From Kagunavirus LF7074P1: a stretch of DNA of 41,071 bases. The notes under the pieces are model-generated. The model saw nothing but the letters and a program-made list of their open reading frames with translations, was not told the origin of the DNA and ran no database searches. A program made the translations under genes and the position numbers. Below are positions 31,391 to 40,555 of the stretch, piece by piece; the first letter of the stretch is position 1, and every line of letters starts with the position of its first letter. The stretch lies in sequence record OZ035758.1. The stretch is one strand, 5' to 3'.

Positions 31391-31421
31391 TATTTATTCT
31401 CCTCTCGTTTGGTATGGGCTA

Positions 31422-34149: not shown

Positions 34150-34440
34150 TTACCGTTTAGCCAACTCTTCCAGCAAATTTTTATACTCTTCAAAATATTC
34201 CTCGACCAAATCATCGCCGAAATAGAAGTCGATATACTCGAGATTATCTCTTACGTTAAGCGACGCAGACATGGTGCTTAGTTGGCGTAAGCTAATTAGC
34301 TTCATTTCTGTTTCTACACAGAAAGGCCGGTAGGTATCGAGGTGGCAAGAGATGTTGAAGCATAAAGCGAACTCTCCCGCCACGGAGTGAACCATATACA
34401 CTTCGTTTTCTGCTTTATTGTGGAAAATTACACCTTTCAT
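34150..34440 (-). CDS. Hypothetical protein
   Basis: 96-aa acidic ORF coupled to upstream HTH gene (ATGA). Confidence 0.45.
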   Translation of the reverse strand: MKGVIFHNKAENEVYMVHSVAGEFALCFNISCHLDTYRPFCVETEMKLISLRQLSTMSASLNVRDNLEYIDFYFGDDLVEEYFEEYKNLLEELAKR

Positions 34441-34619
34441 TTCACATTCTCCTTAATCCATTCTTCAACTTTATTACGGTCAAATGTACCTGGTAAACGG
34501 CGACCCATAACCTTAATACAACAATCAGGGAATTTACCACTGCGCAACCAGTTATTAATTGTCTGACGTGTTACCCCAATACGCTCGGCTACTTCATTCT
34601 GGGTCATGTAATGTTGCAT
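34437..34619 (-). CDS. Small HTH DNA-binding protein (AlpA/excisionase-like fold suggested)
   Basis: 60 aa from ATG 34619 (RBS AGGAG 8 nt upstream); MTQNEVAERIGVTRQTINNWLRSGKFP. Confidence 0.5.
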   Translation of the reverse strand: MQHYMTQNEVAERIGVTRQTINNWLRSGKFPDCCIKVMGRRLPGTFDRNKVEEWIKENVK

Positions 34620-34650
34620 TTTTATATCTCCTGTTTGTTTGGTGAAGCTG

Positions 34651-34679
34651 AGTATAGGATAGCGGGAATGTAAAAGCAA
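34651..34679 (-). promoter_or_regulatory. Candidate sigma70 promoter (TTGCTT-17-TATACT) for the HTH/primase operon
   Basis: Read on the minus strand upstream of the 34619 start. Confidence 0.4.
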
Positions 34680-34716
34680 CCAATCCCTGCAATATTTAAT
34701 CTTTACAAAAAAGTTA

Positions 34717-34746
34717 TTGAAAGTTCTTGACACATGTTTGTATAAT
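34717..34746 (+). promoter_or_regulatory. Candidate rightward sigma70 promoter (TTGAAA-18-TATAAT)
   Basis: Consensus -10 TATAAT at 34741-34746; reads into a non-coding region containing a long hairpin. Confidence 0.4.
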
Positions 34747-35067: not shown

Positions 35068-35101
35068 TCACTTATCGAAACGAGACAGAGGAGTGAGGGT
35101 T

Positions 35102-36311: not shown

Positions 36312-36342
36312 TCATTTACACAAACGAGAGGGGAGACAGAAT

Positions 36343-38251: not shown

Positions 38252-38717
38252 TGGATTGCATTTTACCGCCGCGTTTGAGGGGTTCCGCGGAACTGCGTAT
38301 CGTGCTACGCCATCGGAAAAATACTTAACTATAGGCTACGGTCATTACGGGCCGGACGTGGCCCCAGGCAAGACCATCACGCCAGGGCAAGGCCTCCTGT
38401 TACTGAACCGTGATATGGCTAAGGCCGTAGCTGCGGTTGACGCAGCGGCGCACCATTCGCTAACACAGGCGCAGTTTGATGCAGTGTGCGACCTGGTCTA
38501 TAACGCGGGGGCCGGCGTTATTTCGGCTACTACCGGTACAGGTAAGGCACTGCGCTCCGGTGATATCGCGACGTTACGGGCTAAACTGGCGCTGTTCATC
38601 AACCAGAACGGCAAACCGTTACTGGGCCTTCGCCGCCGTACCGCCGGTCGCCTGGCGCTGTTTGACGGTAAACCGTGGCAAGAGGCGGAGGCTATCGGGC
38701 GCGCGGTGAAAGGTTGA
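38229..38717 (+). CDS. Endolysin, glycoside hydrolase family 24 (lambdoid/P22 gp19-type lysozyme)
   Basis: GTG start 8 nt after GGAGG; motifs EGFRGTAY...TIGYGH...QFDAVCDLVYNAG...LLGLRRRTAGRLALF parallel P22-type lysozymes; no N-terminal signal-arrest-release segment. Confidence 0.8.
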   Translation: MSRNISDNGLHFTAAFEGFRGTAYRATPSEKYLTIGYGHYGPDVAPGKTITPGQGLLLLNRDMAKAVAAVDAAAHHSLTQAQFDAVCDLVYNAGAGVISATTGTGKALRSGDIATLRAKLALFINQNGKPLLGLRRRTAGRLALFDGKPWQEAEAIGRAVKG

Positions 38718-38782
38718 CACCCAAGACTAATCCGATGATACTTAAATCACCTCCTGTTCCATCCCTCTGCTCTCCAGTTTTA

Positions 38783-38813
38783 TCCCGGCCCTGACCCAGC
38801 CGGGATTTTTTTT
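38783..38813 (+). terminator. Strong rho-independent terminator after lysis cassette
   Basis: tcccggc-(9-nt loop)-gccggga stem followed by 8 T. Confidence 0.8.
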
Positions 38814-38835
38814 ATCTATTTTCTGCAATGACTAG

Positions 38836-38864
38836 TTGACTATTATCCTAGACCCTACTATATT
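38836..38864 (+). promoter_or_regulatory. Sigma70-like promoter P8 (TTGACT-17-TATATT)
   Basis: TTGACTattatcctagaccctacTATATT; leader contains the conserved ACGAGA before the RBS. Confidence 0.55.
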
Positions 38865-38897
38865 TACTTCATCGACAACGAGAACGGAGTAGAGAAG

Positions 38898-39047
38898 ATG
38901 AAAATCACAGATACCGAAGCATTCGAAGACGCGCAACTGATGGCGCGCATTGCCGTTAGTCACCGGGGTGGGAGCATTCCCGCGGACTCGTTCTGGTTCG
39001 CTGCGATGCAGACACTGAAAGCAGCTTATGCAGGAGAGAAGAAATGA
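38898..39047 (+). CDS. Small hypothetical protein (49 aa), not in ORF track
   Basis: RBS ggag; ATGA-coupled to next ORF. Confidence 0.3.
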   Translation: MKITDTEAFEDAQLMARIAVSHRGGSIPADSFWFAAMQTLKAAYAGEKK

Positions 39048-39238
39048 AAAATATAGTCCCAGAAGTCGGTAAAGGTTGCTTCGTTGTTTCTTATTTCGAT
39101 GGGGACGAGTACGTTGATTGCGGCCAGTTTCATCAATCTGGTGATGCTGGTGCTTACGCCGCGAAGTTAGTAGGTACTACGCCACTGGAAGACATTCGTA
39201 TTGTATTCAATATGGAACTTGCAGGAGATAAGAAATGA
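39044..39238 (+). CDS. Hypothetical protein
   Basis: 64-aa ORF, coupled. Confidence 0.4.
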   Translation: MKNIVPEVGKGCFVVSYFDGDEYVDCGQFHQSGDAGAYAAKLVGTTPLEDIRIVFNMELAGDKK

Positions 39239-39393
39239 GCGAACACGGTGAAGTAAGCCAACCATTACGAGTAGGCCGTAAAGTCAGTCACACCCCGTTC
39301 CCGACACGCGAGGAACTGATGAAACGTAATAGTTTCCCGGGGCCGGACAAGAACAAGTATCTCAATCGCATGTGGGGAGAGCGTAAAGAATGA
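39235..39393 (+). CDS. Small hypothetical protein (52 aa), not in ORF track
   Basis: ATGA coupling on both sides. Confidence 0.3.
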   Translation: MSEHGEVSQPLRVGRKVSHTPFPTREELMKRNSFPGPDKNKYLNRMWGERKE

Positions 39394-39563
39394 CTAACAA
39401 CGAATACGAGAAACTTAGCGTCGAATCTGCGACCGGTGAATCAGAAATAGCATGGATTGACGCCCACATTGAGCACTACTTACGGCAAGTAGACGCCCTT
39501 ATGGAACGCCGCCGCGAGCTGATTAACCGCTTCAACCTGAACAAATGTGACACCAATGCCTAA
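39390..39563 (+). CDS. Small hypothetical protein (57 aa), not in ORF track
   Basis: ATGA coupling. Confidence 0.3.
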   Translation: MTNNEYEKLSVESATGESEIAWIDAHIEHYLRQVDALMERRRELINRFNLNKCDTNA

Positions 39564-39759
39564 AATCACAATCGCATCACTCGAGCGCCGTATTCTGGTG
39601 CTTGAGTCAGAGAAACAGACGTTAGGCGGACAACTGTCAATTAACGGTGAGTTTCAGCTGGAGGCGTTTAAGTTGTTGCTCGGGAAATTGAAGGAAGAAG
39701 AGCAGAAGCTACTACTCTCCCCTGAGTTCGATTACGGTGTTGATGATGAAAGCGCCTGA
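39556..39759 (+). CDS. Hypothetical coiled-coil protein
   Basis: ORF in track (39547 GTG or 39556 ATG start). Confidence 0.4.
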   Translation: MPKITIASLERRILVLESEKQTLGGQLSINGEFQLEAFKLLLGKLKEEEQKLLLSPEFDYGVDDESA

Positions 39760-39928
39760 ACCCGTAGTTATCGATGGCGTCCTGTGGAAACCATACTCGG
39801 TTAACCACATCGACGCCGACGGGAAGAAGTTCAGCTTCTACATTTTTGCAATTAGCCGTGAGCACGCCGCTTGTGTGGTTGATGATATACGAGAAACAGC
39901 GTGGCTTGGTGATGAGATAGTGGGGTGA
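39737..39928 (+). CDS. Hypothetical protein
   Basis: ORF in track; start TTG 39737 or ATG 39740/39743. Confidence 0.4.
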   Translation: MLMMKAPEPVVIDGVLWKPYSVNHIDADGKKFSFYIFAISREHAACVVDDIRETAWLGDEIVG

Positions 39929-39932
39929 GAGT

Positions 39933-40103
39933 ATGTTCAGTGACATCAACGCAGCAATCGAAGAAGCAATCTGGCGCAGATACAACGGCGAGCAACAACG
40001 GCACTTCTGCCTGGTGCAACGTGGAAACATGATTGCCGTAGTGCAGGACCGCGATAACAAATATCCGAATGCGATGTGGACAACGAGGAATTTTGTAGGA
40101 TGA
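39933..40103 (+). CDS. Small hypothetical protein (56 aa), not in ORF track
   Basis: ATG 39933; stop overlaps next ATG (ATGA). Confidence 0.3.
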   Translation: MFSDINAAIEEAIWRRYNGEQQRHFCLVQRGNMIAVVQDRDNKYPNAMWTTRNFVG

Positions 40104-40336
40104 TTACCAGCATTCCGAACCTGATTAAAGAATACGGCACGATGGCGGAGACATGCCGACAAACCGGCATCAACGAAATGACGATTGCCAAGTACCGCAA
40201 CGACGTGAACTGCGAGCGCCACGTAATTTATAACAACCGTCTTATGACGCACGTTAAGACAAGCCCGGTGTTATTCACGCGCCGTGGTATCACTAAAACT
40301 GAGCAACGTATTGCTAAAGAGGAGAGCGGAGAATGA
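40100..40336 (+). CDS. Small HTH-like protein; candidate regulator
   Basis: 78 aa from ATG 40100; ETCRQTGINEMTIAKYRN helix-turn-helix-like; last substantial gene before the terS promoter region. Confidence 0.4.
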   Translation: MITSIPNLIKEYGTMAETCRQTGINEMTIAKYRNDVNCERHVIYNNRLMTHVKTSPVLFTRRGITKTEQRIAKEESGE

Positions 40337-40436
40337 GACTGCTAACCATTCCGAATGCCTGGGCTATTGCCGTAGCTAACGACCATTACGGCGGCGATGG
40401 TAAAAGAGCACCACGACATGGCCTATACAACTGATA

Positions 40437-40459
40437 CAAGCCCTCTACGGAGGGCTTTT
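40437..40459 (+). terminator. Intrinsic terminator
   Basis: agccctc-tacg-gagggct hairpin followed by tttt. Confidence 0.65.
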
Positions 40460-40482
40460 CTGTACATCCCGCCCAATCCCCT

Positions 40483-40488
40483 TATATA
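40483..40488 (+). promoter_or_regulatory. Candidate -10 element (TATAAT) of late/terS promoter lacking a clear -35
   Basis: Consensus hexamer about 70 nt upstream of terS ATG; no TTGACA-like -35 at the proper spacing. Confidence 0.35.
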
Positions 40489-40494
40489 ATCCCT

Positions 40495-40538
40495 TTAGAC
40501 GCGTAGGGCGCGTCTGATGCGCTCTGATGGTCAGACGC
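40495..40538 (+). other. Two adjacent inverted repeats in the terS leader
   Basis: AGACGCG-taggg-CGCGTCT and ATGCGCTCTGA-tgg-TCAGACGCAT, flanked by outer AATCCCC ... GGGGATT inverted repeat. Confidence 0.6.
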
Positions 40539-40555
40539 ATACGAAAGGGGATTCT

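What the first reader, a model, noticed from the sequence alone, without database searches (positions are those of the whole stretch)
38898..40434. Second array of nine coupled small ORFs between the lysis cassette and terS, ending in an HTH protein
After a strong terminator and promoter P8, nine ORFs of 33-78 aa follow with ATGA overlaps. The penultimate one (40100-40336) has an HTH-like segment and directly precedes the terminator and the -35-less terS promoter, making it a candidate late-gene activator.
Basis: inference. Interest (0 to 1): 0.35.

Follow-up and report, generated by a model that had tools for sequence, protein, structure and literature searches.

The report
Small accessory-gene operon of a Kagunavirus
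The nine tiny genes are real and form one conserved operon of swappable accessory genes found in hundreds of related E. coli and Salmonella phages, and its helix-turn-helix protein is an already-annotated NinH-like DNA-binding protein with nothing pointing to a late-gene activator.

Summary
The window is a near-complete Kagunavirus genome (Guernseyvirinae, virulent siphophage), 98.5-99.7% identical to deposited records.

**Observation: confirmed.** Nine same-strand ORFs of 33-78 aa tile 38898-40434. A sigma-70 promoter (38836-38864) and an intrinsic terminator lie upstream, and a second terminator (40438-40460) lies downstream. Five of eight junctions are ATGA. All nine ORFs show purifying selection (pN/pS 0.06-0.37).

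**What it is.** In 37 related loci the array is a mosaic operon:
- Four core genes are present in 36-37 loci: o1, o3 (DUF2737), o4 and o8 (NinH-like).
- The other genes are interchangeable cassettes swapped at the ATGA junctions. A 19-nt direct repeat flanks o2.
- o3 and o8 have relatives in lambdoid delayed-early accessory regions.

ORF8 belongs to the NinH (Fis-like) family. It keeps the phosphate-contact and dimerisation residues but has Glu and Ala in place of two DNA-contact arginines of lambda NinH.

**Late-activator idea: no support.**
- ORF8 matches no known activator family.
- Its distance to terS varies from 137 to 847 bp among relatives.
- The terS promoter lacks the genome's recurrent operator-like palindrome, which the array's own promoter carries.

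The promoter and the NinH-like gene are already annotated in phage Jersey. The finding is ordinary, so interest is low.

**By-products:** a candidate CU-rich small RNA, a two-hairpin terS leader, and the promoter palindrome.

The parts
38782..38814 (+). Intrinsic terminator upstream of the array. It ends the lysis transcript and possibly a ~65-nt small RNA.
   Evidence: 8-bp stem ATCCCGGC/GCCGGGAT with a 9-nt loop and a U8 run. Conserved in Kagunavirus-like and Jersey-like loci, with a different stem extension in the latter.
38831..38844 (.). Operator-like palindrome ACTAGTTGACTATT, a 13/14 match to AATAG-N4-CTATT, overlapping the -35 of the array promoter.
   Evidence: In phage Jersey the equivalent site is AATAGTTGACTAGT at 42338-42351, overlapping the 5' end of the annotated array promoter.
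38836..38864 (+). Sigma-70 promoter of the array, TTGACT-17-TATATT.
   Evidence: Both hexamers are conserved in the aligned loci of both phage groups that extend through this region. The same promoter is annotated in phage Jersey at 42343-42371.
38865..38897 (+). Conserved leader with the Shine-Dalgarno sequence (CATCGACAACGAGAACGGAGTAGAGAAG).
   Evidence: Nearly invariant between Kagunavirus-like and Jersey-like loci, although the first ORF after it differs between phages. The AACGAGA..GGAG motif is shared with three other promoter leaders.
38898..39047 (+). o1, 49 aa, core gene of unknown function (phrog_2180).
   Evidence: Present in 37/37 loci. pN/pS 0.28. PHROG match E 3e-24.
39044..39238 (+). 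o2, 64 aa, rare acidic cassette flanked by 19-nt direct repeats (39029-39047 and 39220-39238).
   Evidence: Present in 3/37 loci. Repeat D1 is 18/19 identical with 191-nt spacing. pN/pS 0.14. No Pfam or PHROG hit.
39235..39393 (+). o3, 52 aa, basic, DUF2737 family, core gene.
   Evidence: PF10930 at 38.9 bits against a cut-off of 25. Present in 36/37 loci. Relatives lie next to abc2/erf in the early-left operon of P22-like and HK97-like phages.
39390..39563 (+). o4, 57 aa, acidic, core gene, annotated 'NinZ-like' in some records.
   Evidence: phrog_1402 at E 8e-20. Present in 37/37 loci. Directly abuts the NinH-like gene in Jersey-like loci.
39556..39759 (+). o5, 67 aa, semi-core cassette (phrog_9023).
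   Evidence: Present in 29/37 loci. pN/pS 0.37, from only 2 ungapped homologues.
39743..39928 (+). o6, 61 aa, semi-core cassette (phrog_10509).
   Evidence: Present in 31/37 loci. pN/pS 0.06.
39933..40103 (+). o7, 56 aa, semi-core cassette (phrog_5407).
   Evidence: Present in 28/37 loci. pN/pS 0.08.
40100..40336 (+). o8, 78 aa, NinH-family helix-turn-helix protein, core gene.
   Evidence: PF06322 at 24.3 bits, below the cut-off of 29.8. 17 of 18 subfamily members match PF06322. 33% identity to lambda NinH over 51 aa, E 1e-9. AF2 model pLDDT 71 with three helices and a beta hairpin. BFVD hit to a NinH family protein at E 5e-5.
40333..40434 (+). o9, 33 aa, semi-core cassette (phrog_32259).
   Evidence: Present in 27/37 loci. 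pN/pS 0.12.
40438..40460 (+). Intrinsic terminator of the array.
   Evidence: -14.9 kcal/mol, z -5.0. Compensatory change CCCTC/GAGGG to CCCGC/GCGGG in Jersey-like loci.
40461..40490 (+). terS (late operon) promoter-like site, TGTACA-18-TATAAT. Context, not part of the array.
   Evidence: The hexamers are conserved between Kagunavirus-like and Jersey-like loci but the spacer is not.
40497..40541 (+). Two adjacent conserved hairpins in the terS leader. Context, not part of the array.
   Evidence: -24.1 kcal/mol. 99.5% of cells paired, with G.U-preserving and compensatory changes. Unique in the window.

Best explanation
The array is a self-contained accessory operon of a virulent Guernseyvirinae siphophage.

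**How it is expressed.** Host sigma-70 RNA polymerase starts at a near-consensus promoter (38836-38864). It reads through a conserved leader and nine translationally coupled small genes, then stops at an intrinsic terminator (40438-40460) just before the separate terS promoter.

**How it evolves.** It behaves like the lambdoid nin and ea regions. Four core genes (o1, DUF2737 o3, o4, NinH-like o8) are kept. Between and around them are slots where unrelated small cassettes are gained and lost. The exchange happens by recombination at the short conserved stop/start junctions that carry the Shine-Dalgarno sequence.

**What ORF8 probably does.** It is a small dimeric HTH DNA-binding protein of the NinH (Fis-like) family. 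It most likely acts as an architectural or nucleoid-associated DNA binder, or as a local regulator. It is not a dedicated late-gene activator.

**Basis of each step.**
- Shown: the anatomy, the coding status, the conservation, the mosaic pattern and the family assignments.
- Inferred: the early or middle timing and the accessory role in host takeover or anti-defence.
For: - **Anatomy:** searches give the ORFs, promoter, terminators and junctions.
- **Coding status:** pN/pS is 0.06-0.37 for all nine ORFs.
- **Conservation:** the region matches 424 phage records. The promoter hexamers and the leader are conserved across Kagunavirus-like and Jersey-like loci, even where the first ORF differs.
- **Mosaic pattern:** across 37 loci, o1, o4 and o8 are in 37, o3 in 36, o5-o7 and o9 in 27-31, and o2 in 3. 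ORF clustering gave about 60 other families, part of them overlapping-frame artefacts; the plausible cassettes occupy fixed slots.
- **Minimal form:** one Jersey-like locus (L053) holds just the four core genes.
- **Exchange mechanism:** the same junction sequences precede different cassettes. A 19-nt direct repeat brackets o2 exactly.
- **Links to lambdoid delayed-early accessory genes:** o8 is NinH-family. o3 is DUF2737, whose relatives sit just after abc2/erf in P22-like and HK97-like phages.
- **Regulatory class:** the array promoter carries a 13/14 copy of the palindrome found in the replication-operon promoters, in both the window and phage Jersey. This groups it with non-late promoters.
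- **Expression data:** the one RNA-seq study of a close relative places the NinH gene in the broad 'middle' class (PMC12645636).
Against: - No expression or protein data exist at useful time resolution. The only transcriptome samples at 5, 15, 30 and 50 min and onwards. It puts 42 of 57 genes, structural ones included, in a single class.
- The functions of eight of the nine proteins are unknown.
- An accessory, dispensable role is inferred from mosaicism and from lambdoid analogy. Four genes are universally conserved, which could mean they matter more than 'accessory' implies.
- The one-mismatch palindrome at the promoter overlaps the -35 hexamer. Part of its conservation may therefore be due to the promoter itself.
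Confidence: 0.65

Rival explanations
1. ORF8 binds in 40460-40555 and activates the weak terS promoter, switching on late genes.
For: - ORF8 is a plausible DNA-binding protein.
- The terS promoter has an imperfect -35, TGTACA, with an 18-nt spacer.
- In this window ORF8 lies 220 bp upstream of terS.
Against: - ORF8 matches no activator or antiterminator family.
- Lambda NinH is a Fis-like nucleoid-associated protein of the delayed-early nin region; the late activator of lambda is the separately annotated Q antiterminator (PMC7166090).
- Two DNA-contact arginines of lambda NinH are not conserved: R30 aligns with an invariant Glu, and R34 with Ala in most members.
- The distance from ORF8 to terS varies from 137 to 847 bp.
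- Upstream of the terS -35 there is only a terminator hairpin that evolves by compensatory changes. The promoter spacer is not conserved.
- The conserved elements downstream of the -10 behave as RNA hairpins. G.U-preserving changes are tolerated there.
Confidence: 0.05
2. ORF8 is the protein that binds the recurrent palindrome AATAG-N4-CTATT. Binding would repress the array's own promoter, in the manner of Aca proteins in anti-CRISPR operons. It would also repress the replication and other non-late promoters, shifting transcription to the palindrome-free late promoter by repression rather than activation.
For: - The palindrome is strongly enriched: 6 perfect copies against 0.19 expected, and 11 within one mismatch against 0.94 expected.
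- Phage Jersey shows the same enrichment, 7 against 1.06 expected.
- All six perfect copies in the window sit in promoter-like contexts, in the spacer or over the -10-like hexamer. In Jersey three of the four perfect copies lie at annotated promoters, and the array-promoter copy has one mismatch.
- A 13/14 copy overlaps the -35 of the array promoter in both the window and phage Jersey.
- ORF8 keeps the residues that align with lambda NinH H45 and H55, which are needed for dimer formation.
- The terS promoter has no copy.
Against: - A second conserved HTH protein (34440-34733, - strand; HTH_17 and HTH_3 matches) is the first gene of the leftward operon. A gene annotated only as a 'Helix-turn-helix domain' (K1B4_008) is one of the four earliest genes in the K1B4 RNA-seq; equating the two is inference, not mapped here. 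This protein is at least as good a candidate.
- NinH and Fis sites are 15 bp (G-N13-C) with an odd-length core, whereas this palindrome is even.
- There is no co-variation between protein and site that would tell the candidates apart.
- A collection scan for the motif was uninformative.
Confidence: 0.13
3. The array is specifically an anti-defence island. The variable small cassettes would be inhibitors of host immunity such as restriction, CRISPR or abortive infection, kept under a strong early promoter.
For: - Cassettes are small, mostly acidic or of unknown function.
- Turnover is extreme, with fixed insertion slots.
- The promoter is strong and host-type.
- An HTH gene sits near the end of the operon.
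- The DUF2737 relatives lie next to the anti-RecBCD gene abc2 in lambdoid phages.
Against: - No cassette matched a family annotated as anti-defence in Pfam or PHROGs; the only family with a functional name was phrog_986/DUF3850, 'RNA-binding protein'.
- No anti-defence library was available.
- The four core genes are invariant across hosts, which is unusual for arms-race genes.
Confidence: 0.15

Closest known systems
The annotated array of Salmonella phage Jersey (KF148055, Jersey_65 to Jersey_69, promoter 42343-42371) and the equivalent genes in other Guernseyvirinae records
   Same: - Same position, between the lysin and terS.
- Same promoter.
- Same core genes, ending in an annotated 'putative NinH protein'.
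- Kagunavirus records annotate the same ORFs as hypothetical, DUF2737, NinZ-like or NinH-like proteins.
- The fBC-Eco01 paper notes the NinH-like gene at the genome end.
   Different: - The window has nine genes against five in Jersey, because extra cassettes (o2, o5, o6, o7, o9) occupy the slots.
- No record assigns a function to these genes.
Lambdoid nin region (lambda ninB-ninI, P22 nin genes) and the early-left 'ea'/abc region
   Same: - Runs of short genes with overlapping stop and start codons.
- Shared families: NinH, and DUF2737 next to abc2.
- The mosaic content and dispensability of the lambdoid regions are established knowledge of my own, not tested here.
   Different: - The lambdoid regions lie in the PR and PL delayed-early operons of temperate phages and depend on N antitermination.
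- Here the genes form their own promoter-to-terminator unit, between the lysis and packaging genes of a virulent phage.
- Enzymes such as NinB, NinG and NinI are absent.
Lambda NinH, a Fis-like nucleoid-associated protein (PMC7166090)
   Same: - 33% identity over 51 aa.
- Predicted three-helix HTH followed by a beta hairpin.
- Conserved T32, K35, H45 and H55 equivalents.
   Different: - R30 aligns with an invariant Glu.
- R34 aligns with Ala.
- N18 and R56 are not conserved.
- ORF8 has a 10-aa longer C-terminus.
- The window copy scores below the Pfam cut-off, 24.3 against 29.8 bits.
- Its DNA specificity is therefore probably different.
Anti-CRISPR/Aca operons (small variable genes followed by an HTH autorepressor)
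   Same: - A strong promoter, variable small genes, and an HTH gene near the 3' end.
- A palindrome overlapping the promoter.
   Different: - No homology to any known Acr or Aca protein was tested or found.
- The palindrome is shared with many other promoters in the genome rather than being private to this operon.

Membership tests
Phage NinH (Pfam PF06322) | Score at or above the Pfam gathering cut-off. | tested here: inconclusive
   The window copy scores 24.3 bits against a cut-off of 29.8, E 3e-5. However, 17 of 18 close subfamily members match PF06322 at E <= 0.01, best 1.5e-7. BLASTP against lambda NinH gives E 1e-9.
Phage NinH (Pfam PF06322) | A 60-80 aa protein with an N-terminal three-helix HTH followed by C-terminal beta strands. 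| tested here: met
   The AF2 model has pLDDT 71, helices at 5-12, 15-22 and 26-31, and strands at 41-44 and 47-50. BFVD matches include a NinH family protein at E 4.8e-5. The PDB search gave only weak generic HTH hits, best E 0.85.
Phage NinH (Pfam PF06322) | Fis-like DNA-contact residues (lambda N18, R30, T32, R34, K35). | tested here: not met
   T32 aligns with T28 and K35 with K31, both invariant. R30 aligns with E26 (invariant), R34 with A30, and N18 with a variable T14.
Phage NinH (Pfam PF06322) | His45 and His55, which are needed for dimer formation. | tested here: met
   H41 is nearly invariant and H51 invariant, and both align with lambda H45 and H55.
Phage NinH (Pfam PF06322) | Homodimer that binds and bends DNA at G-N13-C sites. 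| not testable with these tools
   This needs purified protein (EMSA, FRET, AUC), as in PMC7166090.
DUF2737 (Pfam PF10930), for o3 | Score at or above the Pfam gathering cut-off. | tested here: met
   38.9 bits against a cut-off of 25, E 8e-10.
Phage late-gene activators and antiterminators (lambda Q, P2 Ogr, Mu C and similar) | Sequence or fold relationship to a known activator family. | tested here: not met
   No such hit for any of the nine ORFs in Pfam, PHROGs or NCBIfam. None for the ORF8 model in PDB or BFVD.
Phage late-gene activators and antiterminators (lambda Q, P2 Ogr, Mu C and similar) | A conserved protein-binding DNA site at or upstream of the late promoter. | tested here: not met
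   Only a terminator hairpin with compensatory changes lies upstream. The spacer is not conserved. The elements downstream of the -10 behave as RNA hairpins. No copy of the genome's recurrent palindrome is present.
Phage late-gene activators and antiterminators (lambda Q, P2 Ogr, Mu C and similar) | Late transcription depends on the protein. | not testable with these tools
   This needs a knockout and RT-qPCR or RNA-seq.
Lambdoid-type non-essential accessory region (nin / ea) | A run of short same-strand genes with overlapping stop and start codons. | tested here: met
   Nine ORFs with eight junctions: five ATGA overlaps, two longer overlaps and one 4-nt gap.
Lambdoid-type non-essential accessory region (nin / ea) | Mosaic gene content among close relatives, with exchange at gene boundaries. 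| tested here: met
   37 loci show fixed slots holding alternative cassettes and shared junction sequences. A 19-nt direct repeat flanks o2.
Lambdoid-type non-essential accessory region (nin / ea) | Dispensability for lytic growth. | not testable with these tools
   This needs deletion mutants. Five of the nine genes are missing from at least 6 of the 37 related loci, which shows that those five are dispensable.
Anti-CRISPR / Aca operon | Homology of the HTH protein to an Aca family, or of a cassette to a known Acr. | not tested
   No Acr or Aca library was available. Pfam and PHROGs gave nothing relevant.

The most novel reading that the evidence does not exclude
ORF8 would be the dimeric regulator that binds the recurrent AATAG-N4-CTATT palindromes. 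These overlap the core elements of the replication, first-array and second-array promoters. ORF8 would then autoregulate its own operon and shut off non-late promoters. Only the palindrome-free terS promoter, with its two-hairpin RNA leader, would keep driving late genes. That is a temporal switch by a NinH/Fis-like repressor in a virulent phage, rather than by an activator.
Probability: 0.12. Interest if true: 0.4.

Novelty: already known. Interest (0 to 1): 0.15.

Why it matters
**As written, the finding matters little.** These genes, the promoter and the NinH-like annotation are already in public records of phage Jersey and many Kagunaviruses. There is no sign of a new mechanism.

**The array does have modest value as an example.** It shows cleanly how small accessory genes are shuffled at stop/start junctions in therapeutic-candidate E. 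coli and Salmonella phages. Its four universally conserved tiny proteins are uncharacterised.

**The regulatory by-products could be more useful** if confirmed experimentally, because they could explain how these polymerase-less virulent phages time their transcription:
- the operator-like palindrome at non-late promoters;
- the structured terS leader;
- a candidate CU-rich small RNA.

Tried and rejected
1. **PDB by sequence (ORF8).** Nothing relevant came back; the best hit was E 1.1 to a neuraminidase.
2. **Foldseek against PDB (ORF8 model).** Only generic HTH hits at E >= 0.85, and Fis was not retrieved. The Fis link therefore rests on the NinH paper and on sequence.
3. **NCBIfam for all nine ORFs.** No hits.
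4. **Rfam.** There were no matches at gathering thresholds anywhere in the window. The sub-threshold hits to CU-rich sRNA families are design resemblances, not membership.
5. **Targets for the candidate small RNA.** RNAduplex scanning of the phage genome gave a best energy of -31.0 kcal/mol. Shuffled seeds gave -27.4 to -33.0, so there is no specific phage target.
6. **Shared late-promoter motif.** TGTACA-N16-19-TAYAAT occurs only at terS.
7. **Inverted-repeat operator private to the array promoter.** The repeat finder returned only the terminator.
8. **Scan of viral contigs for TGAATAGNNNNCTATTAT.** I hoped for phylogenetic profiling of the palindrome against the two HTH candidates. The result mixed chance single hits with Guernseyvirinae contigs and was uninformative.
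9. **K1B4 RNA-seq paper.** The supplements held no usable phage expression table. Its temporal classes are too coarse.
10. **Further literature searches** on Jerseyvirus transcriptomics and DUF2737 gave nothing useful.
11. **The 194-aa antisense ORF at 39668-40252.** Rejected as a gene.
Full report
**What the window is.** The region 38700-40600 matches 424 phage records. It is 99.7% and 98.5% identical to two Kagunavirus genomes of 40.8 and 41.1 kb, so the window is essentially a whole genome of a virulent Guernseyvirinae siphophage. The layout follows from the ORF map and the annotation of a close relative:
- terL, portal, head and tail genes on the + strand;
- replication genes on the - strand (about 23.2-34.7 kb);
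- a first run of small ORFs, then holins and endolysin (ending 38717);
- the array in question, then terS (from 40556), which runs into terL at the start of the window.

**Observation.** The nine ORFs are at the stated coordinates.
- Five of the eight junctions are ATGA overlaps. The o4/o5 junction overlaps by 8 nt, o5/o6 by 17 nt, and o6/o7 is separated by 4 nt.
- Most starts are preceded by GGAG-like motifs inside the previous ORF.
- The upstream terminator (38782-38814) and downstream terminator (40438-40460) fold far better than shuffles, at z -3.3 and -5.0.
- The array promoter is TTGACT-17-TATATT at 38836-38864.
- The terS promoter is TGTACA-18-TATAAT, a weak -35 rather than none.

**Are they genes?** Against up to 51 distinct ungapped homologues per ORF, substitutions pile up at third codon positions. 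Examples are o6 with 59/13/365 and o8 with 265/160/883 across positions 1/2/3. pN/pS runs from 0.06 to 0.37. Eight of the nine ORFs match PHROG families. The long antisense ORF at 39668-40252 is broken by stops or frame changes in 45 of 46 loci. The nine + strand ORFs are therefore real coding genes. The sequences are related, so these counts are not independent events.

**What the proteins are.**
- Only two ORFs have a named family. o3 is DUF2737, at 38.9 bits against a cut-off of 25. o8 hits Phage_NinH at 24.3 bits, below the cut-off of 29.8. NCBIfam gives nothing.
- For o8, 17 of 18 members of its 60-97% identity subfamily hit PF06322.
- BLASTP against lambda NinH gives 33% identity over 51 residues, E 1e-9.
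- The AlphaFold model (pLDDT 71) has three helices, then a beta hairpin, then a C-terminal helix. That is the architecture proposed for lambda NinH (PMC7166090).
- BFVD returns a NinH family protein at E 4.8e-5. PDB returns only weak generic HTH hits.
- Lambda NinH is a Fis-like homodimer that binds and bends DNA. T32A and K35A abolish binding, R30A weakens it more than a thousand-fold, and H45A and H55A shift the protein to monomers.
- In o8 the T, K and both His positions are invariant or nearly so. R30 is replaced by an invariant Glu, R34 by Ala, and N18 and R56 vary.
- The reading is that DNA binding and dimerisation are plausible, but Fis-like base recognition is probably not retained.

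**Comparative anatomy.** I took 51 IMG/VR loci found with o8 and three annotated records. In 37 loci, the window's own copy included, both the endolysin and terS could be located.
- Clustering all + strand ORFs between the endolysin and terS gives four core families: o1, o4 and o8 in 37/37 and o3 in 36/37.
- Four families are semi-core: o6 in 31, o5 in 29, o7 in 28 and o9 in 27.
- o2 is in 3 loci only. Clustering gave about 60 further families. Part of them are overlapping-frame artefacts, and many of the rest are singletons.
- Gene order is colinear, with alternative cassettes in fixed slots. One Jersey-like locus contains only o1-o3-o4-o8.
- The same 22-nt junctions precede different cassettes. 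TTATGCAGGAGAGAAGAAATGA precedes o3, o2, f13 and f14.
- In the window a 19-nt direct repeat (39029-39047 and 39220-39238, 18/19 identical) brackets o2 exactly. Cassette gain and loss by recombination at the stop/start junctions fits this pattern.
- The 15 accessory cassettes scanned are nearly all of unknown function. One is DUF3850/ASCH-like. By inspection of their sequences, several look like membrane proteins.
- The region between the endolysin and terS is 1.2-3.0 kb long across the 37 loci.

**Links to lambdoid phages.** DUF2737 relatives occur in P22-like and HK97-like phages, immediately after erf and abc2 in the early-left operon. NinH lies in the early-right nin region. Both are delayed-early accessory regions. 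That fits, but does not prove, an early or middle accessory role here.

**Regulatory signals.**
- The promoter hexamers and the 31-nt leader (CATCGACAACGAGAACGGAGTAGAGAAGATG) are conserved between Kagunavirus-like and Jersey-like loci, even when the first ORF differs.
- A palindrome, AATAG-N4-CTATT, occurs six times perfectly against 0.19 expected, and 11 times within one mismatch against 0.94 expected.
- All six perfect copies sit inside promoter-like sites.
  - Three are in the spacer of TTGACA-17-TATAGT promoters of the replication operons.
  - Three lie over a -10-like TACTAT downstream of CTTGCACAC.
- A 13/14 copy overlaps the -35 of the array promoter.
- In phage Jersey the motif is again enriched, 7 against 1.06 expected. 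It coincides with annotated promoters, including the array promoter.
- The motif is absent from the terS promoter.
- The fBC-Eco01 paper lists this motif as 'phage RNAP promoters'. No RNA polymerase gene is annotated in the two relatives whose annotation I read.
- I read it as the operator of an unidentified phage regulator. On that reading the array belongs to the regulon of the non-late promoters.

**The late-activator idea.**
- Nothing ties o8 to terS. The distance from its stop to the terS ATG is 137-847 bp, median 378, and is window-like (223-226 bp) in 7 of 37 loci.
- The sequence upstream of the terS -35 is the terminator hairpin, which changes by compensatory substitution. The spacer differs between genera.
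- Downstream of the -10 are two adjacent hairpins (40497-40541, -24.1 kcal/mol).
- In 11 distinct sequences, 99.5% of the cells of those hairpins are paired. Several A-U to G-U changes and two double changes are tolerated. That favours an RNA element over a DNA operator.
- Another HTH protein exists at 34440-34733 on the - strand (HTH_17 E 5e-8, HTH_3 E 9e-7).
- In the only transcriptome of a relative, an HTH-domain gene is among the four earliest genes. The NinH gene falls in the 42-gene 'middle' class together with structural genes. That study is too coarse to decide.

**Comparison with what is known, and novelty.**
- The phage Jersey record already annotates the array promoter, five small genes and a 'putative NinH protein'.
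- Kagunavirus records annotate the same ORFs, and a genome paper comments on the NinH-like gene.
- The array is therefore an already-known, functionally uncharacterised feature. It works like a lambdoid nin/ea accessory region. It is not that region by position or regulation.
- The slot-and-junction description and the promoter palindrome assignment are refinements, not a new kind of system.

**Verdict.**
- Observation: confirmed.
- Interpretation: partly supported (operon and HTH yes, late activator no).
- Interest: 0.15.
- The most novel reading still open is that o8 is the palindrome-binding temporal repressor (probability about 0.12).

Noticed in passing
window 38714-38814 (+): Candidate ~65-nt small RNA.
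- A promoter-like site, TTGACA-17-GATACT, overlaps the endolysin stop. Both hexamers are conserved in Kagunavirus-like and Jersey-like loci while the spacer diverges. The -35 is also kept where other genes are inserted after the endolysin.
- It is followed by an unstructured CU-rich stretch (AUCACCUCCUGUUCCAUCCCUCUGCUCUCCAG) and then the intrinsic terminator.
- From my own knowledge, AUCACCUCCU equals the anti-Shine-Dalgarno tail of 16S rRNA.
- Rfam gives only sub-threshold hits to CU-rich sRNAs: RF02278 at 25 bits against 50, and RF02837.
- No specific target was found in the phage genome.

   Followed up: partly
window 13030, 25437, 28925, 31427, 35055, 36299 (perfect); 2816, 4444, 31471, 38831 (one mismatch): A palindrome, AATAG-N4-CTATT, is strongly enriched and sits inside promoter-like sites of the replication operons, the first small-ORF array and the second array.
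- It is also enriched in phage Jersey, at annotated promoters.
- It was published for fBC-Eco01 as 'phage RNAP promoters', although no RNA polymerase gene is annotated in the relatives I read.
- It is probably the operator of an unidentified phage regulator.

   Followed up: partly
window 40497-40541 (+): Two adjacent hairpins lie in the terS leader, right after the -10.
- They are conserved in Kagunavirus-like and Jersey-like loci, with compensatory and G.U-preserving changes.
- They are unique in the genome.
- They could be an mRNA-stabilising element or a cis-acting antitermination element in the style of HK022 put. That comparison is speculation from memory and was not tested.

   Followed up: partly
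window 34440-34733 (-): A second HTH protein (HTH_17, HTH_3, excisionase-like) is the first gene of the leftward operon. A gene annotated only as an HTH domain is among the four earliest genes in the K1B4 RNA-seq; that it is this protein's counterpart is my inference and was not mapped. It is an alternative candidate for the temporal regulator.
   Followed up: partly
L003 about 1400-1500 and L039 about 2135-2235 (related loci, not the window): A ~100-nt insertion with terminal inverted repeats (TTAGGCGAGTAGT ... ACTACTCGCCTAA) sits between the small-RNA promoter and the CU-rich body in two related phages. It looks like a miniature mobile or hairpin element.
   Followed up: no
window 39390-39563 and 40100-40336; Jersey-like loci L043-L055: phrog_268 (119 positions) matches o4 with its N-terminal part and o8 with its C-terminal part. 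In Jersey-like phages o4 directly abuts o8. In the window o5-o7 are inserted between them. This may point to a functional pair, or to merged annotations in the PHROG.
   Followed up: partly
L001 / L056 (OR594183.1): This GenBank record is named vB_EcoM and classified under Autographiviridae/Kayfunavirus. Its gene content and its 93% identity to the window make it a Kagunavirus-like siphophage, so the taxonomy line looks wrong.
   Followed up: no
window 38865-38897, about 31395-31420 (-), about 35075-35095, about 36320-36342: A shared leader motif, AACGAGA..GGAG, lies downstream of four different promoters. It may be a common translation-initiation or regulatory element.
   Followed up: no
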